64,000 nucleotides of DNA from Escherichia coli (lineage in GTDB: Bacteria > Pseudomonadota > Gammaproteobacteria > Enterobacterales > Enterobacteriaceae). Positions 10,966-50,473 of the stretch are shown one piece after another; position 1 is the first letter of the stretch, and each line of letters starts with the position of its first letter. Made by a program: the position numbers and the translations under genes. The notes beneath the pieces were generated by a model, which was not told where the DNA came from, ran no database searches, and saw only the letters and a list, made by a program, of their open reading frames with translations. The DNA is taken from assembly GCF_003334335.1 (NCBI RefSeq), contig NZ_QOWQ01000001.1. One strand, given 5' to 3'.

Positions 10966-11697
10966 TCAGGCTGTTACCAAAGAAGTTGCAACCTGGCGCT
11001 CATCAGAAATAATGTGCGTTACCTCATCCAGATGCCCGATGCGGGCTTCCCCTGAACGATTAAATTTACTTTTATCAATCAATAACAACGATTGCGCGGC
11101 ACGTTTTAATAGCATCGATTTGTAATCAGCGTTGATCGCATTGGAGTCCCACAGTGCGCCGCTGCTATCGATCCCTTCACAAGAAAAAATAAACAGATCG
11201 ATTTCCAGCGATTTAAGTTGGGAAATCAGCGAGGGATTGACGTAACAGCCATATTTGCGCTCAAGTGTGCCGCCGGAACTGATCAGTTGAATGCGTTCGC
11301 GTTTACCGAGTTCATGGCAAATCGGATGGCTATTGGTGAAGACCTGAATGTTGATGTCAGGCAACTGGCGTGCCAGATACCAGCAAGTTGAACTGGCGTC
11401 TAAGGCTATCACCATCCCTTCTTCAATCCACGCGAGCGCCTCGCGCGCGATATCTGCTTTATGCGCATAATGGCTTTTCAGCCTGATGTGAAAGGGATCG
11501 CCACTGTCTTGATTTTGACGGTGGATATATTTAGCGCGTCCATGATTGCGCAGAATTTTACCCTGCGTCTGTAATTCATTGAGATCGCGACGAATGGTTT
11601 CTTTACTGACCTTTAGCTGTTCAGAGAGAGCTTCCGTGGTCAGGCTGGTATGGTTCAGCAGCAGGTCGACTATCGCTTGCTGGCGTGCCGCTTTCAT
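10966..11697 (-). CDS. fucR: DeoR-family activator of the L-fucose regulon
   Basis: ORF 10966..11706; recognised start MKAARQQAIVDLLLNHTSLTTEALSEQLKVSKETIRRDL (243 aa). Confidence 0.88.
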   Translation of the reverse strand: MKAARQQAIVDLLLNHTSLTTEALSEQLKVSKETIRRDLNELQTQGKILRNHGRAKYIHRQNQDSGDPFHIRLKSHYAHKADIAREALAWIEEGMVIALDASSTCWYLARQLPDINIQVFTNSHPICHELGKRERIQLISSGGTLERKYGCYVNPSLISQLKSLEIDLFIFSCEGIDSSGALWDSNAINADYKSMLLKRAAQSLLLIDKSKFNRSGEARIGHLDEVTHIISDERQVATSLVTA

Positions 11698-11754: not shown

Positions 11755-12177
11755 TTACGGTGTTACCCCTTTTTTTAAAAGAATATTCCCGTACTTCGCT
11801 CGTTCGCCTGTGATAACGATCGCAAAGGCTTTTTGCGCCCGTTCATAAAACGCAAAACGATTGATGCGGATGATGTCAGGACACGGGGCTTGTAGTGAAA
11901 GCGCATTACGGTAACGTCGTTCTACTTCAGGATCGAGAGTGTCACCTTCTACCGCCGCCATCATCACCAGCGGCGGTGCATAACTGTCCAGTTCAAATAA
12001 CGGGATAATCGCCTGGAGCAAGTCGCTCACCAACAGGCCATCAGCGCGGATCACCTGCGGTCCCATCGAATGGGCGGGAAAGTGAGCATCGGAAAAAATA
12101 ATTTCATCTCCATGTCCCATCTCTGCCAGCACTTTCAATAGTTCGGGAGAAATTAACGGCGAAATTGTTTTCAGCAT
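11755..12177 (-). CDS. fucU: L-fucose mutarotase
   Basis: 140 aa, [34 protein letters not shown]. Confidence 0.9.
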
Positions 12178-12178
12178 T

Positions 12179-13627
12179 TCACACTTCCTCTATAAATTCA
12201 GGTTCAGTTTGCGGGTAGAAATAACGGTACTGATAATGAATCTGTGCGCGGGCTTCTTCCGGGCTGTTAAATTCCCCTACGCCATACCAACCGAACAGCG
12301 CAGCTCCTGCGACGGTCGTTTCGGCGTCGTCGAGAACTTTTACCGGAATATCAAGCATATTGGCTTTAATCTGATTCCACAATGTGTTGCGACTTCCTCC
12401 ACCGACTAACAATAATTCAGAGGCCTTAAAGTGCCCGATTTTTTCCAGCATCTGTAGATTGCGCTGTAATTGCGCAGTTAACCCTTCCAGCGCCGCGCGA
12501 TAGAAATGCCCCCGCGTGGTATTAAGCGTCACTCCTTGCCAGCCAGCGTTCTGACACGACAATAAATCACACTGCATTTTTACGCCATCCGCGCCAGGCG
12601 CGATCAGACGAGCTTCTTCAATCAACATTTGCCAGGGTGTTTCAGCCGTCCAGAACAGTTTTCTCACCCATTCCAGCACGCCGGATGCCAGCCATTGCAT
12701 ACCTGGGTTATACAACCCTGCCTGGCTATCCAGTTCGCAGGTGGAACCGGCGTACTGACTTAACAGCGAAGTATCAACCTGGGCGCTGCGAACCATTAAA
12801 ATTTCCCATGTACCGGAAGAGAGCACGGGTTCATTTTGTTCAGCACCAGCGCCAAAAAGGGCGAACTGGGTATCGTGACCTGCGGAAATCACCGGTATGC
12901 CAACGGGTAAGCCGAGCATTGCTGCGGCGCTGTTCTGTAGCGTACCAATCTGTTCACCCGCTTCCACCAGACGAGGGAAGAGTCGGCGTGGAATACCGGT
13001 GGCTTGTAAAATTTGCGGACTGAAATCGCGTTGCTGGATATCCAGCATCTGGCTGGTTCCGGCCATCGTGATATCAGTAGTGAATTCGCCGGTTAAACGG
13101 TGGTTAATCAGCGACGAAATAAAGAGCCAGGCGTGCGCGCGTTCCAGCAGTTGTGGATGATTTTCTTTCAACCACACCAACTTATATAACGTATTGAAAC
13201 TAAAGGCTCCGACGCCAGAAATAGCCTGCAACCGCTGTGCGGAGATTAACCGTTCAATATTGTCCATAACCGCTGCTGTTCGCGGACATTTCCAGCTAAT
13301 AATCGGATAGAGCAGATTGCCTTGCTTATCTACCAGAGCGCCATCCACACCAAAGGTGGTGACGGCGATACCGCGGATGTGGCATTCAGTCAGTTCACTA
13401 TTGATTTGCCGACAGCAATCAGCAAAGCGTTGCAAAATGGCGTCTAAAGACCACTGGTGCCAGGTGTTGTTTTCCATCGCGATATCGCTGGCATTAGGCG
13501 TTGAGGCGCGGGCAACAATTTTGCCCTGCCGATTAACCGCGATGGCCCTGACATTGGTCGCGCCACAGTCGAGTACCAGGATAACTTCTTGTTTCATAAT
13601 CGCTCCTGCAATATAGCCGGATAACAT
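12179..13627 (-). CDS. fucK: L-fuculokinase (FGGY family)
   Basis: 482 aa, FGGY kinase motifs, position in fucPIKUR operon. Confidence 0.9.
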
Positions 13628-13705: not shown

Positions 13706-15481
13706 TTAACGCTTGTACAACGGACCGTAGTTCTGGCAAGCGCGGTAATCCTGGCCTTCAATATCCATGCCGTGCGCAGCCCAGGCAGAAGGACGATACA
13801 CTTTGGTCTCTTCAACGTTGTGCATACATACCGGGATACGCAGCATGGAGGCGAGAGTGATAAAGTCTGCGCCAACGTGGCCGATGGTCAGAACCCCATG
13901 GTTAGCGCCCCAGTTCGCCATTACCGAGTACACATCCGTAAACGGCCCTTTACCGGTGAGGCGCGGTGCAAACCAGGTGGTTGGCCAGGTTGAGTTGGTG
14001 CGTTTGTTGAGGATGTCATGCACATCCTTCGGCAATTCCACGCTCCAGCCTTCCGCGATTTGCAGTACCGGTCCCAGGCCTTTGATGATGTTGACACGAG
14101 TCATGGTGAACGGGACGCCGCCTTCGGTAAGGAAGCGGGAAGAGTAACCGCCGCCACGGAAGTATTCGTGGATCGCCGGGCACCATTCGGTAGCGGCGAG
14201 GCAAGCGTCAGCCTCTTGCTGAGAGATTTCCCAGTGTGGCTTCATCGTCGGGTTACCTTCGCTGTCGCGTTGTTTACAGGAACCGTCCAGCGCAGCAGAA
14301 CCGGAGTTGATCAAATGGATGATGCCGTGTTCTGCCAGTCCATCCAGTTTATGCCCCGTTACACGCTCAATTGCTTCTGGTGACCAGTAGGTACGCACAT
14401 CGGCAAATACCTGAGCGGTGCCGGTGAGCTGGTGACCCATTAGCATTGCCACGCCGTTAAGACTGTCGTTTTCGGTCGCCACGACAAAGGGTTCGCGCAC
14501 GCCATTCCAGTCAAATGAACTGTTGAGGATCGCTTCGGCGGTGTCACCATTGGGATATTGATCGGTCCAGTGACGTTGCCCCTGGAAGCCCGCAGCGATG
14601 GCGTTGTAGCCAAGTGATTCTTCCACGCGACCAATATCGGCCAGTTTGCTGTTGCCTTGCATCATGTCGCGGATACACATCGCCATCAGTAAACTTTCGC
14701 GCAGAACTGCGCGGCTTTGCTCGGCATTACGTTGATACTGTTTGTTATTTTCATCTTCGCCATAGCGGAAGTTTTTATCAGCCCAGGCCAGTGCCATTTC
14801 CAATTCGGCTTCGTCGTAAATCTTCTGATCGATACGGCGACGCAGTTCGGTCATATCCACCGCCTGGACTTTCATTCCCAGCCAGGATTCAAAGAAGTTG
14901 TGATCAACAATGGAACCGGCGATACCCATCGAAACGCCGCCCAGCGACAGATAGCTTTTACCTTTCATGCTGGCGACGGCCAAACCGGCGCGGGCAAAGC
15001 GCAGCAGTTTTTCTTCAACATCGGCAGGAATCGATGTGTCATCGGCATCCTGAACGTCATGACCGTAAATGGAGAATGCTGGGATGCCTTTCTGGCTGTG
15101 AGCTGCCAGAGCCGCTGCCAGGTAAACAGCGCCGGGGCGTTCAGTGCCGTTAAAGCCCCAAATGGCCTTCGGGCGGGTTGGATCCATGTCGATGGTTTCA
15201 CTGCCATAGCACCAGCAAGGCGTTACCGTAATGGTGAGGCCTACATTCTGACTGCTGAATTTTTCTTCGCAAGCAGCGGCTTCAGCCATACCCGCGATAC
15301 AGGTATCGGAAATGACACACTCGACGGCAGCTCCGCAGGCATGGCGCAGTTTCTCGGTCAGCAGTGCGGCCGTAGCTTTCGCCATATTCATTGTTTGTTC
15401 TTCAAGCGACTCACGAACACCCATGCGACGACCGTCAATAACCGGGCGGATACCAATTTTCGGTAAGCTGATTTTTTTCAT
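13706..15481 (-). CDS. fucI: L-fucose isomerase
   Basis: 591 aa, [30 protein letters not shown]. Confidence 0.9.
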
Positions 15482-15513: not shown

Positions 15514-16830
15514 TCAGTTAGTTGCCGTTTGAGAACGGAAACGGGCAAAGATAAAGATGACCGCGAAGCAGAGTGCGGGGATCAGTTCAGCAGTGGGGAT
15601 GTTGCCCGCCGCGTCACTGACAAAACCCATGACCGGAGTGACAATACCGCCGCCAATAATGGTCATAACGATGAAGGACGAACCATATTTGGTGTCCTGG
15701 CCGAGATTCTTAATGCCCAGCGAGAAGATTGTTGGGTACTGAATCGACATAAAGGCGCTGCATAAAGTCAGGGCTATTAAGCCCACATGACCGCCAGCGA
15801 AGGCTGAGATCAGGCACAGTGCCATAGCGATTAATGCGTAGGCGGCCAGGACTTTGTGTGGTGCGAAGCGACTGATGAGCCAGGTACCGGTGAAACGACC
15901 AATAAAGAAGCACACCATGGTTCCGGTTAAATAGTTAGCGGCAAAGCCTGCAGTCATACCTGGAATTTCTTCTACAGCGTAGCGAATCAAATAGCTCCAG
16001 CAGGCCGTTTGTGCGCCGACATAGCAGAATTGCGCTAATACCGCCCAGCGCCAGTGGCGAATACGCGCCAGGCGAGAAAGCGATGCGGAGAACGATCCTT
16101 GTTTGGCGTCACTGTGATTATCACTCTGCAATGCCGGGAATTTCGTCAGCATGATCAGCAGGGCGACCAGTAACACGATAGCCACGATGATCATATAAGG
16201 TGTCTGTACCGATAATACCAGGCTGTGTTTATACGCACTCAATTGCTCTGGAGACATTTTATCGAGAACGTCTTGCGATTGATGTGGCACGTTAGACAAA
16301 ATAAGACTTTGCCCAAAGACAACCGCGATAATTGCGCCAAACGAGTTAAATGTTTGCGCAAGATTTAAGCGGAAGTGACCACTACTTTCCGGCCCTAATA
16401 CCGTAACAAAAGGGTTTGCGGCAGTTTCCAGACAACCTAATCCGGCTGCAATAATAAATAGGCCAACTAAAAATAAGGTGTAGTTCATTATTTCTGCGGC
16501 GGGCCAGAATAATGCAGCACCCAAGGCATATAAAAATAACCCGGTAATAATCCCTGCTTTATAACTGAGTTTTTTCATCAATATCCCAGCAGGGATTGGG
16601 ATAATGAAATAACCAAAGTAAAAGGCCGATTGGATCAGGCCAGCCTGGAAATTTGTCAGCGTAAAAGCCTGCTGGAATTGAGGTAATAAAATGTCGTTAA
16701 GGTTATTGGCTACCGCCCAAAGAAAAAACAGTGAGCACAGCAGCGCGAATGGAATAATGTAACTTCTGCTTTGCCCTGCATCTTTATCTACCGCACGGTA
16801 ACTCTGCGTTTGTATTGATGTGTTTCCCAT
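15514..16830 (-). CDS. fucP: L-fucose:H+ symporter (MFS)
   Basis: 438 aa, multi-TM, MGNTSIQTQSYRAVDKDAGQSRSYIIPFALLCSLFFLWAVANNLNDILLPQFQ. Confidence 0.9.
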   Translation of the reverse strand: MGNTSIQTQSYRAVDKDAGQSRSYIIPFALLCSLFFLWAVANNLNDILLPQFQQAFTLTNFQAGLIQSAFYFGYFIIPIPAGILMKKLSYKAGIITGLFLYALGAALFWPAAEIMNYTLFLVGLFIIAAGLGCLETAANPFVTVLGPESSGHFRLNLAQTFNSFGAIIAVVFGQSLILSNVPHQSQDVLDKMSPEQLSAYKHSLVLSVQTPYMIIVAIVLLVALLIMLTKFPALQSDNHSDAKQGSFSASLSRLARIRHWRWAVLAQFCYVGAQTACWSYLIRYAVEEIPGMTAGFAANYLTGTMVCFFIGRFTGTWLISRFAPHKVLAAYALIAMALCLISAFAGGHVGLIALTLCSAFMSIQYPTIFSLGIKNLGQDTKYGSSFIVMTIIGGGIVTPVMGFVSDAAGNIPTAELIPALCFAVIFIFARFRSQTATN

Positions 16831-17376
16831 AGCATCCTCTTAGGTTCAGAAGCTTAAGCACGTAATCGGTTATGTTTTCAAAAGTGCAAAACCAGCGAGT
16901 TCGGGCTTCATATCAGTGAATATTTGCCTGTCTGAAATGAACTCATGGATTCATTTTCAAATAAAAAACGCTCTGTAATATGACGGCGGTCACACTTATT
17001 AGCTAGAAGGTGACTTTATGTGACTACCATCACTTTAATAATCGAAATTTCATGCCCGTTTCAGAAAATAAATCATAAAAAACACAAATCAGATGACCGT
17101 ATTAATTGTTTGTGCCGAAAACGGTCATTCCGGGCTTGGAGGAATAGAAAAATGACCGTTTTGATAAATATTTTTAAGAGCGGTCATTTTTAATGGGGTT
17201 ATAAAAAGAGAACTTGCAGTTATTTACTGTGATTAGTTGAACCAGGTCACAAAATATAAGCTTGTGAATTTCTTTCTTGTTAATCAGGAAGAAGATGGTG
17301 GGTAATTAAACGGCTAATTCAATAGTGTGAAAGGAACAACATTATTGCCCTGTTTTGAATCAGAGAGAGGTAGCTA

Positions 17377-18024
17377 ATGGAACGAAATAAACTTGCTCGT
17401 CAGATTATTGACACTTGCCTGGAAATGACCCGCCTGGGACTGAACCAGGGGACAGCGGGGAACGTCAGTGTACGTTATCAGGATGGGATGCTGATTACGC
17501 CTACAGGCATTCCATATGAAAAACTGACGGAGTCGCATATTGTCTTTATTGATGGCAACGGTAAACATGAGGAAGGAAAGCTCCCCTCAAGCGAATGGCG
17601 TTTCCATATGGCAGCCTATCAAAGCAGACCGGATGCCAACGCGGTTGTTCACAATCATGCCGTTCATTGCACGGCAGTTTCCATTCTTAACCGATCGATC
17701 CCCGCTATTCACTACATGATTGCGGCGGCTGGCGGTAATTCTATTCCTTGCGCGCCTTATGCGACCTTTGGAACACGCGAACTTTCTGAACATGTTGCGC
17801 TGGCTCTCAAAAATCGTAAGGCAACTTTGTTACAACATCATGGGCTTATCGCTTGTGAGGTGAATCTGGAAAAAGCGTTATGGCTGGCGCATGAAGTTGA
17901 AGTGCTGGCGCAACTTTACCTGACGACCCTGGCGATTACGGACCCGGTGCCAGTGCTGAGCGATGAAGAGATTGCCGTAGTGCTGGAGAAATTCAAAACC
18001 TATGGGTTACGAATTGAAGAGTAA
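17377..18024 (+). CDS. fucA: L-fuculose-phosphate aldolase (class II)
   Basis: 215 aa, MERNKLARQIIDTCLEMTRLGLNQGTAGNVSVRY. Confidence 0.9.
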   Translation: MERNKLARQIIDTCLEMTRLGLNQGTAGNVSVRYQDGMLITPTGIPYEKLTESHIVFIDGNGKHEEGKLPSSEWRFHMAAYQSRPDANAVVHNHAVHCTAVSILNRSIPAIHYMIAAAGGNSIPCAPYATFGTRELSEHVALALKNRKATLLQHHGLIACEVNLEKALWLAHEVEVLAQLYLTTLAITDPVPVLSDEEIAVVLEKFKTYGLRIEE

Positions 18025-18048: not shown

Positions 18049-19200
18049 ATGATGGCTAACAGAATGATTCTGAACGAAACGGCATGGTTTGGTCGGGGTG
18101 CTGTTGGGGCTTTAACCGATGAGGTGAAACGCCGTGGTTATCAGAAGGCGCTGATCGTCACCGATAAAACGCTGGTGCAATGCGGCGTGGTGGCGAAAGT
18201 GACCGATAAGATGGATGCTGCAGGGCTGGCATGGGCGATTTACGACGGCGTAGTGCCCAACCCAACAATTACTGTCGTCAAAGAAGGGCTCGGTGTATTC
18301 CAGAATAGCGGCGCGGATTACCTGATCGCTATTGGTGGTGGTTCTCCACAGGATACTTGTAAAGCGATTGGCATTATCAGCAACAACCCGGAGTTTGCCG
18401 ATGTGCGTAGCCTGGAAGGGCTTTCCCCGACCAATAAACCCAGTGTACCGATTCTGGCAATTCCTACCACAGCAGGTACTGCGGCAGAAGTGACCATTAA
18501 CTACGTGATCACTGACGAAGAGAAACGGCGCAAGTTTGTTTGCGTTGATCCGCATGATATCCCGCAGGTGGCGTTTATTGACGCTGACATGATGGATGGT
18601 ATGCCTCCAGCGCTGAAAGCTGCGACGGGTGTCGATGCGCTCACTCATGCTATTGAGGGGTATATTACCCGTGGCGCGTGGGCGCTAACCGATGCACTGC
18701 ACATTAAAGCGATTGAAATCATTGCTGGGGCGCTGCGAGGATCGGTTGCTGGTGATAAGGATGCCGGAGAAGAAATGGCGCTCGGGCAGTATGTTGCGGG
18801 TATGGGCTTCTCGAATGTTGGGTTAGGGTTGGTGCATGGTATGGCGCATCCACTGGGCGCGTTTTATAACACTCCACACGGTGTTGCGAACGCCATCCTG
18901 TTACCGCATGTCATGCGTTATAACGCTGACTTTACCGGTGAGAAGTACCGCGATATCGCGCGCGTTATGGGCGTGAAAGTGGAAGGTATGAGCCTGGAAG
19001 AGGCGCGTAATGCCGCTGTTGAAGCGGTGTTTGCTCTCAACCGTGATGTCGGTATTCCGCCACATTTGCGTGATGTTGGTGTACGCAAGGAAGACATTCC
19101 GGCACTGGCGCAGGCGGCACTGGATGATGTTTGTACCGGTGGCAACCCGCGTGAAGCAACGCTTGAGGATATTGTAGAGCTTTACCATACCGCCTGGTAA
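18049..19200 (+). CDS. fucO: L-1,2-propanediol oxidoreductase (iron-containing alcohol dehydrogenase)
   Basis: MMANRMILNETAWFGRGAVGAL; true start may be the second ATG at 18052; Fe-ADH motifs. Confidence 0.9.
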   Translation: MMANRMILNETAWFGRGAVGALTDEVKRRGYQKALIVTDKTLVQCGVVAKVTDKMDAAGLAWAIYDGVVPNPTITVVKEGLGVFQNSGADYLIAIGGGSPQDTCKAIGIISNNPEFADVRSLEGLSPTNKPSVPILAIPTTAGTAAEVTINYVITDEEKRRKFVCVDPHDIPQVAFIDADMMDGMPPALKAATGVDALTHAIEGYITRGAWALTDALHIKAIEIIAGALRGSVAGDKDAGEEMALGQYVAGMGFSNVGLGLVHGMAHPLGAFYNTPHGVANAILLPHVMRYNADFTGEKYRDIARVMGVKVEGMSLEEARNAAVEAVFALNRDVGIPPHLRDVGVRKEDIPALAQAALDDVCTGGNPREATLEDIVELYHTAW

Positions 19201-46657: not shown

Positions 46658-47052
46658 GTGTTCCCCGCGCCAGCGGGGATAAACCGGCAAAAACCGGGCA
46701 ATCGCAAAAAGGCGTAATGTGTTCCCCGCGCCAGCGGGGATAAACCTGTGTTTGCGGCATTAACGCTCACCAGCATTTCGTGTTCCCCGCGCCAGCGGGG
46801 ATAAACCGACGTGGTCATGGGTGCTGCTGTTGCAGAGCCAGTGTTCCCCGCGCCAGCGGGGATAAACCGAGCAGATACACGGCTTTGTATTCCGTGCGCC
46901 CGTGTTCCCCGCGCCAGCGGGGATAAACCGAATAGCAATAGTCCATAGATTTGCGAAAACAGGTGTTCCCCGCGCCAGCGGGGATAAACCGGAGCCTGAC
47001 GAGACTACTGAGGCCGTTCTGTCGAGTTCCCCGCGCCAGCGGGGATAAACCA
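46658..47052 (+). CRISPR. Type I-E-style CRISPR array: 7 repeats of 29 bp, 6 spacers of 32 bp, AT-rich leader on the queE side
   Basis: Repeats GTGTTCCCCGCGCCAGCGGGGATAAACCG start at 46658, 46719, 46780, 46841, 46902, 46963 and 47024, strict 61-bp period; last repeat is the variant GAGTTCCCCGCGCCAGCGGGGATAAACCA; no cas genes in the window. Confidence 0.95.
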
Positions 47053-49195: not shown

Positions 49196-50473
49196 TTACT
49201 TGCTGCTAGCCATTGCGGGGGCGCTATCAGCAGTACGAATTTTTTGGAACAGCAAAAAGGTAAAGACAATCACCATGCCAAGCGCCGCCATGCCCATCAG
49301 CCACATATTGCGGTAGGCTTCTGCAGCGGGCAGGGTGTCTTGCCAGTGGCCGATAATTGGGTAAACGAAGACATCCGGCAGGAATCCAATCACCGAACAA
49401 ATACCTACCGTGGTGCCCATAATGTAAGACGGTGTTCTCGCTTCGCCAGGGCAGGCCCAGTACAGTCCGCGTGAGGCGTAACAGGTGAATCCCAGCAGTA
49501 AAATCAGGCCAATCCCCATCGCGACCGATTGCGGGTTAGAGTTCGTGACGAGCAGGGCAGTTAACGTCAGCAGGCCGAGTACGGAAAGGATTTGGATCAC
49601 GCGGGTAGGGGATTTCACTTTGCTGTAGGTGGTGATTATGCCGCCAAGTGGGCCGCACAGCGCGCGGAATATTTTGTTGATCACAATCCCCATGTAGCTC
49701 GCCGCCACCAGCGACATGCCATACATTTCGGTCAGATAGTTGGTGGAGTAACTCAGAATGGCGTAGATGGTGAAGACGCCAAAAATCACCATGCTGCAAT
49801 ACCAGGTGGTGCTGATACGCAAAACGGCCAGGATGTCGCTAAGCTGGAATGACTGTTTTTCTTCGTTATTGGCACTGCGCAGGTTGTTGTTATCGCTAAC
49901 AAAAAACCAGCACAGAATCCCCAACAAGATGTAAACCACACTATAGATGATAATGACCGTTTTCAGGCTGGTGCTGTCATCCGGTGCAAAGCGAGAAAAG
50001 ACCCACATGGTAAACACCGCCAGCGACATTACACCGACGCCGCGCAGCCCTTCCATCCAGCCCATAATTTTCCCTTGCTCGCTATGATCGCCAAGCAACG
50101 ATGCAGCTTTAATCGACACCGACCACAGCATTAAAATCGTCGTTATCGCAAAGGCGATCTGAATACAGAGCATTACCCACAGCGGTGGATACGTTGCCAT
50201 TAACAGACCCAGTAATCCGGTAATGATCATCGCGGAAGTAATCATTTTGCGGTGTGAAAATTTATCGGCAATAACGCCGCTGGGGGCATAAAGAATAATG
50301 GCCGCAATACCAAAGGTACTCATTATTAAACCTATCTCGGTATTGCTGAATCCCATAAATTTCGCCATGGGAATTTGATAAATATAACGTAAATAAGCCA
50401 GGTCGAAACTAACGCCGCCGCTAAAACTAATTATCGCGAGGGTTATCCAACGGCGATATGAGTTGTGTTGCAT
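49196..50473 (-). CDS. yqcE: MFS transporter, substrate unknown
   Basis: 425 aa, 12-TM-like hydrophobic profile, MQHNSYRRWITLAIISFSGGVSFDLAYLRY. Confidence 0.85.
   Translation of the reverse strand: MQHNSYRRWITLAIISFSGGVSFDLAYLRYIYQIPMAKFMGFSNTEIGLIMSTFGIAAIILYAPSGVIADKFSHRKMITSAMIITGLLGLLMATYPPLWVMLCIQIAFAITTILMLWSVSIKAASLLGDHSEQGKIMGWMEGLRGVGVMSLAVFTMWVFSRFAPDDSTSLKTVIIIYSVVYILLGILCWFFVSDNNNLRSANNEEKQSFQLSDILAVLRISTTWYCSMVIFGVFTIYAILSYSTNYLTEMYGMSLVAASYMGIVINKIFRALCGPLGGIITTYSKVKSPTRVIQILSVLGLLTLTALLVTNSNPQSVAMGIGLILLLGFTCYASRGLYWACPGEARTPSYIMGTTVGICSVIGFLPDVFVYPIIGHWQDTLPAAEAYRNMWLMGMAALGMVIVFTFLLFQKIRTADSAPAMASSK

What the first reader, a model, noticed from the sequence alone, without database searches (positions are those of the whole stretch)
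17092..17187. Two operator-like palindromes TGACCGT-N20-ACGGTCA in the divergent fucPIK / fucAO control region
The heptamer TGACCGT or its complement occurs four times in alternating orientation (17094-17100, 17121-17127, 17153-17159, 17181-17187), forming two near-identical inverted-repeat units (tgaccgtattaattgtttgtgccgaaaacggtca and tgaccgttttgataaatatttttaagagcggtca) about 190-285 bp upstream of fucA. Tandem palindromes of this kind are typical binding sites for DeoR-type regulators, so these are candidate FucR operators; they do not match the CRP consensus.
Basis: partly seen in the sequence, partly recalled or inferred. Interest (0 to 1): 0.4.

Follow-up and report, generated by a model that had tools for sequence, protein, structure and literature searches.

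The report
Known FucR activator sites, fuc promoters
The repeats are real and are the DNA sites where the fucose-pathway activator FucR binds between the divergent E. coli fucPIK and fucAO operons; this was published in 2021-2025, so it is a correct but ordinary finding.

Summary
The window is E. coli. Its fucP-fucA intergenic region is identical to K-12 MG1655. The repeat pattern is real and non-random: no GC-rich hexamer reached 4 copies in 100 bp in 3000 shuffles. Only three copies are exact TGACCGT. Two of the four copies are exactly the published FucR sites OFucR2 (17115-17129) and OFucR3 (17174-17188). Zhang et al. 2024 found that mutating them cut fucose induction of PfucAO by about 30% and by more than 50-fold. 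The motif came from an in vitro binding assay (Baumgart 2021). Comparison of six genera shows five elements, not four, with core aaaaTG[A/C/t]CCGTTT. The fifth lies at 17053-17058. Order (+ + - + -) and spacing (41 / 28 / 28-31 / 28 bp) are conserved, and CRP sites flank the array at fixed distances. Position 3 of the core varies freely; most E. coli sampled carry TGCCCG at the second copy. The FucR assignment is right. The "two palindromic operators" reading is only partly right. The 28-bp spacing of the inverted pairs is the most conserved spacing. However, the published truncations show that 17181-17186 alone keeps about 70% of induction. Verdict: already known, with a small comparative refinement.

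The parts
17049..17062 (+). It lies 29 bp from the centre of OCrp1.
   Evidence: It is a one-mismatch copy of the repeat (D2/I12). It is conserved in position and orientation in Salmonella, K. michiganensis, Raoultella, Hafnia (as TGCCAG) and Plesiomonas. Its function has not been tested. It may be one of the 'putative OR0/OR1' operators of PMC11894529.
17090..17103 (+). S1, a FucR-type element (core TGACCG at 17094-17099).
   Evidence: It is conserved in six genera as TGMCCG(A/T)WT. It is dispensable for PfucAO: truncation V5 starts at -270 (window 17107) and keeps full activity.
17115..17129 (-). S2, which is the published OFucR2 (ccgaaaaCGGtCAtt; core CGGTCA at 17122-17127).
   Evidence: The string is identical to the site mutated in PMC11011485, where mutation reduced fucose-induced PfucAO activity by about 30%. 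It is conserved in six genera. It reads CGGGCA in other E. coli lineages.
17149..17162 (+). S3, a FucR-type element (AAAATGACCGTTTT; core at 17153-17158).
   Evidence: It is the best match in the whole 64-kb window to the six-genus matrix, at 21.6 bits, the maximum possible. It is conserved in six genera. The 2024 paper does not name it. Removing it together with S2 (V6, -206) costs no more than mutating S2 alone.
17174..17188 (-). S4, which is the published OFucR3 (ttaagagCGGtCAtt; core CGGTCA at 17181-17186; the heptamer is GCGGTCA at 17180-17186).
   Evidence: The string is identical to the site mutated in PMC11011485, where mutation lowered fucose induction more than 50-fold. Its centre is at -130.5 from the fucA transcription start and 59-60 bp from the OCrp2 centre in all six genera.
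16976..16997 (.). OCrp0, a CRP site of the fucPIK promoter (taaTaTGAcggcggTCACActt). It contains a sixth TGACCG at 16987-16992.
   Evidence: The sequence is given in PMC11894529. The site is conserved.
17016..17037 (.). OCrp1, the second CRP site of the fucPIK promoter. Its centre is 40 bp from OCrp0.
   Evidence: TGTGActaccaTCACT is read. The site is named in PMC11011485 and PMC11894529. It is conserved in six genera.
17233..17254 (.). OCrp2, the CRP site essential for PfucAO (ttagtTGAaccaggTCACAaaa). Its centre is at -70.5 from the transcription start.
   Evidence: The sequence and the mutagenesis result (a 350-fold loss) are in PMC11011485. I mapped it. It is conserved.
17314..17314 (+). 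fucA transcription start (a C, 63 nt before the ATG). The -10 element aattaa lies at 17304-17309.
   Evidence: 5'RACE result reported in PMC11011485. I mapped it on the sequence.
10966..11697 (-). fucR, the gene for the DeoR-family activator that recognises the elements.
   Evidence: The ORF is listed. It matches NCBIfam NF007720, 'L-fucose operon activator' (equivalog), at 508 bits against a cut-off of 259.
15514..16830 (-). fucP, the first gene of fucPIK(UR), transcribed leftwards.
17377..18024 (+). fucA, the first gene of fucAO, transcribed rightwards.

Best explanation
The four repeats, plus a fifth at 17053-17058, are recognition elements for FucR. FucR is the DeoR-family activator of the fuc regulon and is active when bound to fuculose-1-phosphate.

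Each element is an asymmetric site of about 12-15 bp, aaaaTG[A/C/t]CCGTTTt. The five elements (+ + - + -) form an upstream activating array of about 135 bp. The array sits between the CRP sites of the leftward fucPIK promoter (OCrp0, OCrp1) and the CRP site of the rightward fucAO promoter (OCrp2).

What is shown by published work: S2 and S4 are needed for fucose induction of PfucAO. S4 is critical. CRP at OCrp2 is indispensable.

What I infer here: S0, S1 and S3 are also FucR sites. The array is spaced rigidly (Crp0 -40- Crp1 -29- S0 -41- S1 -28- S2 -28/31- S3 -28- S4 -59/60- Crp2), which suggests FucR oligomers and CRP assemble into one nucleoprotein complex. The three (+) elements, which read AAACGGNCA towards fucP, probably serve mainly PfucPIK. 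The two (-) elements, which read AAACGGNCA towards fucA, serve PfucAO.

FucR most likely acts by helping CRP occupy its site or by shaping the DNA, not by touching RNA polymerase, because S4 is centred at -130.5. This is the proposal of the 2024 authors.
For: - Identity of the locus. The intergenic region is 100% identical to MG1655, and 5013 E. coli genomes hold it once each.
- Published function. OFucR2 and OFucR3 are string-identical to 17115-17129 and 17174-17188, with mutational effects of about 30% and more than 50-fold. The motif comes from an in vitro genomic binding assay.
- PMC11894529 speaks of four known FucR sites: OR0 and OR1, putative, for fucPIKR, and OR2 and OR3 for fucAO.
- Non-randomness: 0 of 3000 shuffles.
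- Phylogenetic footprint. All five elements keep the same order, orientation and spacing in Salmonella, Klebsiella michiganensis, Raoultella, Hafnia and Plesiomonas, while the DNA between them diverges.
- The flanks, A-rich 5' and TTT 3', are conserved independently of the core used to find the sites.
- Within E. coli, substitutions pile up in the S2-S3 spacer. Elements S0, S1, S3 and S4 are unchanged in all five E. coli sequences compared.
- S3 is the top match in 64 kb.
- fucR is encoded in the same locus.
- Orientation and function. The truncation at -270 removes S0 and S1 with no loss. The truncation at -206 removes S2 and S3 and loses the same 30% as the S2 point mutant.
Against: - No footprint or gel shift of purified FucR on this region was found in the papers I could read. 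Direct binding rests on the high-throughput assay, which I know only as cited; the Baumgart paper itself is not held.
- S0, S1 and S3 have no functional data, and none of the five has been tested on PfucPIK.
- I selected the cores in other genera with the pattern TGNCCG, so invariance at core positions 1, 2, 4, 5 and 6 is partly by construction.
- Only six genera were compared, because the large genome scan could not be run.
- The reporter data come from the lac locus at saturating fucose. Cooperative effects of the dispensable elements could have been masked.
Confidence: 0.85

Rival explanations
1. The functional units are two palindromic operators, S1+S2 and S3+S4. Each is bound by one symmetric FucR dimer or tetramer that needs both arms.
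For: - The arms are convergent inverted repeats (I1 and I10).
- The 28-bp centre-to-centre spacing within each pair is invariant in five genera, and both pairs become 29 bp in Plesiomonas. By contrast S2-S3 varies (28 or 31) and so does S0-S1 (41, 42 or 51).
Against: - A centre-to-centre distance of 28 bp (about 2.7 helical turns) is far longer than a classical dimer operator.
- The published motif is one asymmetric 15-mer.
- V5 lacks S1 and is fully active. V6 retains S4 without S3 and still gives about 70%.
- A fifth, unpaired element, S0, is equally conserved.
- In K-12 the best complementarity is between S2 and S3, not within the proposed pairs (I5).
Confidence: 0.3
2. The inverted repeats are selected to form a DNA cruciform or an RNA hairpin, for example an attenuator or an sRNA, and not to serve as protein sites.
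For: Single-stranded folding of 17086-17195 gives two hairpins with z = -4.1 against shuffles.
Against: - The region lies upstream of both native transcription starts. The fucA start is at 17314, and the fucP start is described as lying to the left, near OCrp0.
- The loops are 20 nt long.
- Core position 3 does not covary between partners. Examples: E. coli ST131 and O157 have S1 TGACCG with S2 CGGGCA; Raoultella has S1 TGCCCG with S2 CGGTCA; Hafnia and Plesiomonas have S3 TGCCCG with S4 CGGACA.
- No Rfam match at E <= 1.
- No terminator-like site.
Confidence: 0.02
3. The elements are sites for a regulator other than FucR (CRP, SrsR or an unknown factor), or they are a chance cluster.
For: - One TGACCG lies inside CRP site OCrp0 (16987-16992).
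- SrsR has been proposed to regulate fuc.
Against: - The elements lack TGTGA-N6-TCACA.
- The S2 and S4 mutations have no effect in glycerol, where CRP acts but FucR is inactive, and act only in fucose.
- SrsR was shown not to regulate fucAO.
- Chance is excluded by the shuffles and by conservation in six genera.
Confidence: 0.03

Closest known systems
OFucR2 / OFucR3 (OR2 / OR3) of the E. coli fucAO regulatory region (Zhang et al. 2024, PMC11011485; Zhang et al. 2025, PMC11894529; motif from Baumgart et al. 2021)
   Same: This is literally the same DNA. 17115-17129 and 17174-17188 are string-identical to the two mutated sites. The regulator, the inducer and the promoter are also the same.
   Different: The papers treat the sites as single 15-mers on one strand. 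The 2025 paper adds two 'putative' sites, OR0 and OR1, whose sequences the text does not give. Here five elements are defined with coordinates, orientation, cross-genus consensus and spacing. At least one of S0, S1 or S3 is therefore not among the four published.
Operators of other E. coli DeoR-family regulators: DeoR 16-bp palindromes O1/O2/OE with looping, GlpR tandem 20-bp operators, UlaR, AgaR (from my own knowledge; not tested here)
   Same: The protein family is the same (FucR also scores against the GlpR, AgaR, SrlR, UlaR and DeoR models). In each case there are multiple sites per control region, oligomeric regulators, and sugar-phosphate effectors.
   Different: Those regulators are repressors whose sites overlap or flank the promoter. 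FucR is an activator whose nearest site is at -130. The FucR elements are asymmetric, with 28-bp spacing, not compact palindromes or abutting tandem repeats.
The malEp-malKp divergent control region, with arrays of asymmetric MalT boxes and interspersed CRP sites (from my own knowledge)
   Same: This is what it works like. A divergent sugar regulon has several asymmetric activator boxes in both orientations plus several CRP sites at fixed distances, forming one nucleoprotein complex that drives two promoters.
   Different: The activator family is unrelated (MalT is a STAND/LuxR type). MalT contacts RNA polymerase from promoter-proximal boxes, whereas FucR sites lie distal to the CRP sites.

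Membership tests
FucR binding element (published motif NNNAAAACGG[T/G]CAT[T]) | Sequence match to the published consensus | tested here: met
   S2 and S4 are the published strings themselves. S1 and S3 match on the opposite strand, and S3, AATGACCGTTTT, is a perfect reverse complement. S0 matches with the allowed G variant, CGGGCA.
FucR binding element (published motif NNNAAAACGG[T/G]CAT[T]) | Location in a promoter region whose expression depends on FucR | tested here: met
   The elements lie between fucP (15514-16830, -) and fucA (17377-18024, +). The FucR dependence of both operons is taken from PMC11011485.
FucR binding element (published motif NNNAAAACGG[T/G]CAT[T]) | Mutation abolishes or reduces fucose (FucR) induction but not basal expression | not testable with these tools
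   This is published for S2 (about 30% loss) and S4 (more than 50-fold loss), with no effect in glycerol. No data exist for S0, S1 or S3. The truncations suggest they are dispensable for PfucAO.
FucR binding element (published motif NNNAAAACGG[T/G]CAT[T]) | Direct binding of FucR protein to the DNA | not testable with these tools
   The only evidence is the high-throughput in vitro assay, as cited in PMC11011485, and it concerns the OFucR2 region. The primary paper is not held.
FucR binding element (published motif NNNAAAACGG[T/G]CAT[T]) | Conservation in orthologous fucP-fucA control regions | tested here: met
   Five elements occur in the same order, orientation and spacing in six genera.
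Classical palindromic dimer operator | Inverted-repeat symmetry of two half-sites | tested here: met
   S1/S2 and S3/S4 are convergent inverted repeats (I1 and I10).
Classical palindromic dimer operator | Half-sites close enough, about 10-11 bp centre to centre, for one compact dimer | tested here: not met
   The centre-to-centre distance is 28 bp, or 29 bp in Plesiomonas.
Classical palindromic dimer operator | Both half-sites required for function | tested here: inconclusive
   The published truncations V5 (no S1, full activity) and V6 (S4 without S3, about 70%) argue against this for PfucAO. They were measured only at saturating fucose and at the lac locus. PfucPIK has not been tested.
CRP site | TGTGA-N6-TCACA | tested here: not met
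   None of S0-S4 has this form. The true CRP sites lie at 16976-16997, 17016-17037, 17233-17254 and 17323-17344.
Structured RNA or hairpin element | Rfam match, or covariation that preserves the pairing | tested here: not met
   There is no Rfam match at E <= 1. Core position 3 differs between partners in several lineages.
Dispersed repeat (REP/BIME-like or mobile element) | Many copies per genome | tested here: not met
   The median is one place per E. coli genome.

The most novel reading that the evidence does not exclude
The five FucR elements and four CRP sites form one rigidly spaced, roughly 330-bp nucleoprotein scaffold that has been conserved since the common ancestor of Escherichia, Hafnia and Plesiomonas. 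Within it, FucR elements of opposite polarity are interleaved. The three that point to fucP (S0, S1, S3) activate only PfucPIK. The two that point to fucA (S2, S4) activate only PfucAO. FucR oligomers bridge the convergent 28-bp pairs, which couples the two promoters. Such an orientation-specific, interdigitated activator array has not been described for a DeoR-family protein.
Probability: 0.3. Interest if true: 0.35.

Novelty: already known. Interest (0 to 1): 0.15.

Why it matters
On its own the finding re-discovers published FucR sites, so it changes little.

The comparative result adds exact coordinates for the untested elements S0, S1 and S3. It also adds a consensus in which the third core base is free, and a conserved spacing rule. 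These give a direct design for the experiments still missing on the fucPIK side of the regulon, and for deciding how a DeoR-type activator is arranged on DNA.

The regulon matters in practice. Fucose use affects gut colonisation by E. coli and Salmonella. fucO and propanediol metabolism is a classic model of IS5-driven adaptive mutation.

Tried and rejected
- Large comparative scan. I replaced the scan with protein searches and exact-protein look-ups.
- FucA-anchored look-ups in Klebsiella sp., Citrobacter freundii, Atlantibacter, C. rodentium, Morganella and Gibbsiella. These returned a different locus type: fucA sits behind periplasmic-binding-protein/ABC genes, with no divergent fucP. They have no TGNCCG arrays, so they could not be used for footprinting.
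- RNA explanation. Rfam gave nothing. The hairpin z-score of -4.1 follows trivially from the inverted repeats and is contradicted by the lack of covariation.
- Consensus sigma-70 promoter and terminator scan found nothing in the region. This fits activator-dependent promoters.
- PDB sequence search with FucR gave no hit at E <= 0.001, so I attempted no structure-based geometry argument.
- Papers not held: Baumgart 2021, Zhang 2010 and Podolny 1999. As a result I could not determine the exact published positions of OR0 and OR1 or of the fucP transcription start.
- A search for newer work on FucR sites of fucPIK found none.
- The isolated strong matrix hit at 49950-49963 lies inside a 425-aa ORF and is most simply explained by chance.

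Full report
**Where we are.** The window carries the E. coli fuc locus in reverse orientation. The genes are fucR 10966-11697 (-), fucU 11755-12177 (-), fucK 12179-13627 (-), fucI 13706-15481 (-), fucP 15514-16830 (-), fucA 17377-18024 (+) and fucO 18049-19200 (+). The 546-nt fucP-fucA intergenic region (16831-17376) is 100% identical to K-12 MG1655. It occurs once per genome in 5013 of 5426 complete E. coli genomes. The fucR product matches the NCBIfam equivalog 'L-fucose operon activator' at 508 bits against a cut-off of 259, with weaker matches to GlpR, AgaR, SrlR, UlaR and DeoR. It is therefore a DeoR-family protein.

**The observation.** TGACCGT is exact at 17094-17100 (+), 17121-17127 (-) and 17153-17159 (+). 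The fourth copy is GCGGTCA at 17180-17186. The hexamer TGACCG/CGGTCA is exact four times. Both 20-nt spacers are as described.

In 3000 dinucleotide-preserving shuffles of the intergenic region, none contained 4 or more TGACCG. None contained any G+C-rich hexamer four times within 100 bp. AT-rich hexamers do reach four copies in about 7% of shuffles, so the G+C content of the repeat is what makes it stand out.

**What the literature already says.** Zhang et al. 2024 (PMC11011485) took a FucR motif from the in vitro genomic binding assay of Baumgart et al. 2021, quoted as ...AAAA-CGG-T/G-CA-T-T. With it they identified OFucR2 (CCGAAAACGGTCATT) and OFucR3 (TTAAGAGCGGTCATT).

- Mutating OFucR2 lowered fucose-induced PfucAO-lacZ activity by about 30%.
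- Mutating OFucR3 lowered it more than 50-fold.
- Neither mutation changed basal activity in glycerol.

The same paper mapped the fucA transcription start by 5'RACE to the C at -63, which is window 17314. It also showed that CRP site OCrp2 (17233-17254, centred at -70.5) is essential. Zhang et al. 2025 (PMC11894529) refer to 'four known' FucR sites: putative OR0 and OR1 for fucPIKR, and OR2 and OR3 for fucAO. All four lie on the fucA side of the IS5 target CTAG. The text does not give the sequences of OR0 and OR1.

**Comparative genomics.** The large genome scan could not be run. I instead fetched orthologous fucP-fucA divergent regions from five other genera:

- Salmonella enterica (L002)
- Plesiomonas (L003)
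- Hafnia (L004)
- Klebsiella michiganensis (L014)
- Raoultella ornithinolytica (L015)

In every one there are five TGNCCG elements, not four, in the same order and orientation (+ + - + -). The fifth, S0, corresponds to window 17053-17058 (TGCCCG). It is a one-mismatch copy that the repeat finder had already flagged (D2 and I12).

Start-to-start spacings S0-S1 / S1-S2 / S2-S3 / S3-S4 are:

| Genus | S0-S1 | S1-S2 | S2-S3 | S3-S4 |
|---|---|---|---|---|
| E. coli | 41 | 28 | 31 | 28 |
| Salmonella | 41 | 28 | 28 | 28 |
| Klebsiella | 41 | 28 | 28 | 28 |
| Raoultella | 41 | 28 | 28 | 28 |
| Hafnia | 42 | 28 | 31 | 28 |
| Plesiomonas | 51 | 29 | 31 | 29 |

The flanking CRP sites are also fixed. 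OCrp0 to OCrp1 is 39-40 bp. OCrp1 to S0 is 29 bp. S4 to OCrp2 is 59-60 bp. The Plesiomonas OCrp1 value printed is a mis-pick of a second TCAC; from the alignment the distances there are 40 and 30 bp.

A 30-site matrix gives aaaa-T-G-[A 14 / C 14 / T 2]-C-C-G-T-T-T-t. The A-rich 5' flank and the TTT 3' flank were not used to find the sites, so they are independent evidence for a common recognition element. In the multiple alignment, the conserved blocks are the CRP sites and S0-S4, while the spacers diverge.

Within E. coli, four other lineages (ST131, O157:H7, strains 104 and 0H25) carry CGGGCA at S2. Their substitutions concentrate in the S2-S3 spacer. The exact K-12 39-mer spanning S1-S2 is found in 1219 genomes. 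The exact heptamer repeated four times is therefore a detail of K-12-type strains. The conserved feature is TGNCCGTTT.

**How the elements are used.** The published 5' truncations end at -480, -377, -339, -270, -206, -166 and -123 from the fucA ATG. I mapped them on the elements: S0 at -324, S1 at -283, S2 at -255, S3 at -224 and S4 at -196.

- V5 (-270) lacks S0 and S1 and has full induced activity.
- V6 (-206) retains only S4 and keeps about 70%.
- V7 (-166) has lost S4 and has lost most of its activity.

The 30% lost in V6 equals the loss from the S2 point mutation alone, so removing S3 adds nothing measurable. This means both (-) elements, which read AAACGGNCA towards fucA, contribute to PfucAO. 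All three (+) elements, which read AAACGGNCA towards fucP, are dispensable for it. I infer that the (+) elements mainly serve PfucPIK. That is consistent with the 2025 paper's assignment of OR0 and OR1 to fucPIKR. It also fits the published observation that an IS5 insertion at CTAG (17003-17006) silences fucPIK. That insertion separates OCrp1, and everything to its right, from the fucP promoter. This step is an inference, because no fucP-lacZ data exist for any element.

S2-S3 and S0-S1 vary, the latter by about one helical turn.

Several points count against an obligate palindromic operator:

- The half-site centres are 2.7 helical turns apart.
- The published motif is a single asymmetric 15-mer.
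- S4 functions without S3, and S2 functions without S1.
- S0 has no partner.

My reading is that the unit of recognition is the single element. The conserved 28-bp geometry most likely reflects bridging by FucR oligomers within a larger FucR-CRP complex. I put about 0.3 on the strict palindrome model.

**Rivals rejected.** The region does not match any Rfam family and contains no consensus promoter or terminator. Its predicted hairpins (z = -4.1) lie upstream of both transcription starts, and they lose complementarity at core position 3 in several lineages. The elements do not fit the CRP consensus. The S2 and S4 mutations act only under FucR-activating conditions. SrsR was excluded experimentally by the 2024 authors.

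**Verdict.** The finding is a correct re-discovery of known FucR sites. The new content is modest: precise coordinates for five elements, a cross-genus consensus, a conserved spacing rule, and an orientation-function correlation that can be tested directly. Novelty: already known. Interest: low.

Noticed in passing
window 17003-17006: The CTAG target used by IS5 in all propanediol-positive (PPD+) K-12 mutants (PMC11894529) is absent from the four other E. coli lineages sampled. It reads CTGG in O157 and 0H25, CCGG in ST131, and TTGG in strain 104. The classical IS5 route to fucAO activation may therefore be available only to K-12-type strains.
   Followed up: partly
window 17077-17088: A block AAAAAACACAAA lies between S0 and S1. 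Its core CACA at 17083-17086 is conserved in five of the six genera, as (A/C)CACAG in four of them and CACAAA in E. coli; Plesiomonas differs. It is not a FucR or CRP motif, and no function is known.
   Followed up: no
window 16987-16992: A sixth TGACCG lies inside CRP site OCrp0 (TGTGACCG). The CCG that follows TGTGA is conserved in Escherichia, Salmonella, Klebsiella and Raoultella, but not in Hafnia or Plesiomonas. It could be coincidence or a hybrid CRP/FucR site.
   Followed up: partly
window 17130-17150: The spacer between S2 and S3 is the polymorphism hot spot of the intergenic region within E. coli. It is also where Salmonella, Klebsiella and Raoultella have a 3-bp deletion.
   Followed up: partly
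window 49950-49963: An isolated strong match to the FucR matrix, ATAATGACCGTTTT at 19.5 bits, is the second best in the window. It lies inside a 425-aa ORF (49196-50473, -) and has no neighbouring elements. It is probably chance.
   Followed up: partly
window 46662-47040: A CRISPR-like array with a 61-nt period and repeat GTGTTCCCCGCGCCAGCGGGGATAAACCG. It is unrelated to the finding.
   Followed up: partly
L017 (E. coli EC25) 278-1036; target corresponds to window 16889-16897: A human-gut E. coli isolate carries an IS1A insertion in the fucP leader, with a 9-bp target duplication AAACCAGCG. The insertion lies on the fucP side of the CRP and FucR sites.
   Followed up: partly
window 17262-17267 vs 17281-17286: PMC11011485 places the PfucAO -35 hexamer 'TTGtgA' at -96 to -91 from the fucA ATG. 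In the sequence, TTGTGA is at -115 to -110 (17262-17267), which is 36 bp from the stated -10 element (17304-17309). The bases at -96 to -91 are TAATCA. The assignment of the -35 element looks inconsistent.
   Followed up: no
L005, L006, L007, L008, L009, L016: In Klebsiella sp., Citrobacter freundii, Atlantibacter, C. rodentium, Morganella and Gibbsiella, fucA (85-87% identical) sits downstream of periplasmic-binding-protein/ABC-transporter genes, not divergent from fucP. No TGNCCG array is present. This points to a different transport system and probably a different regulator.
   Followed up: partly
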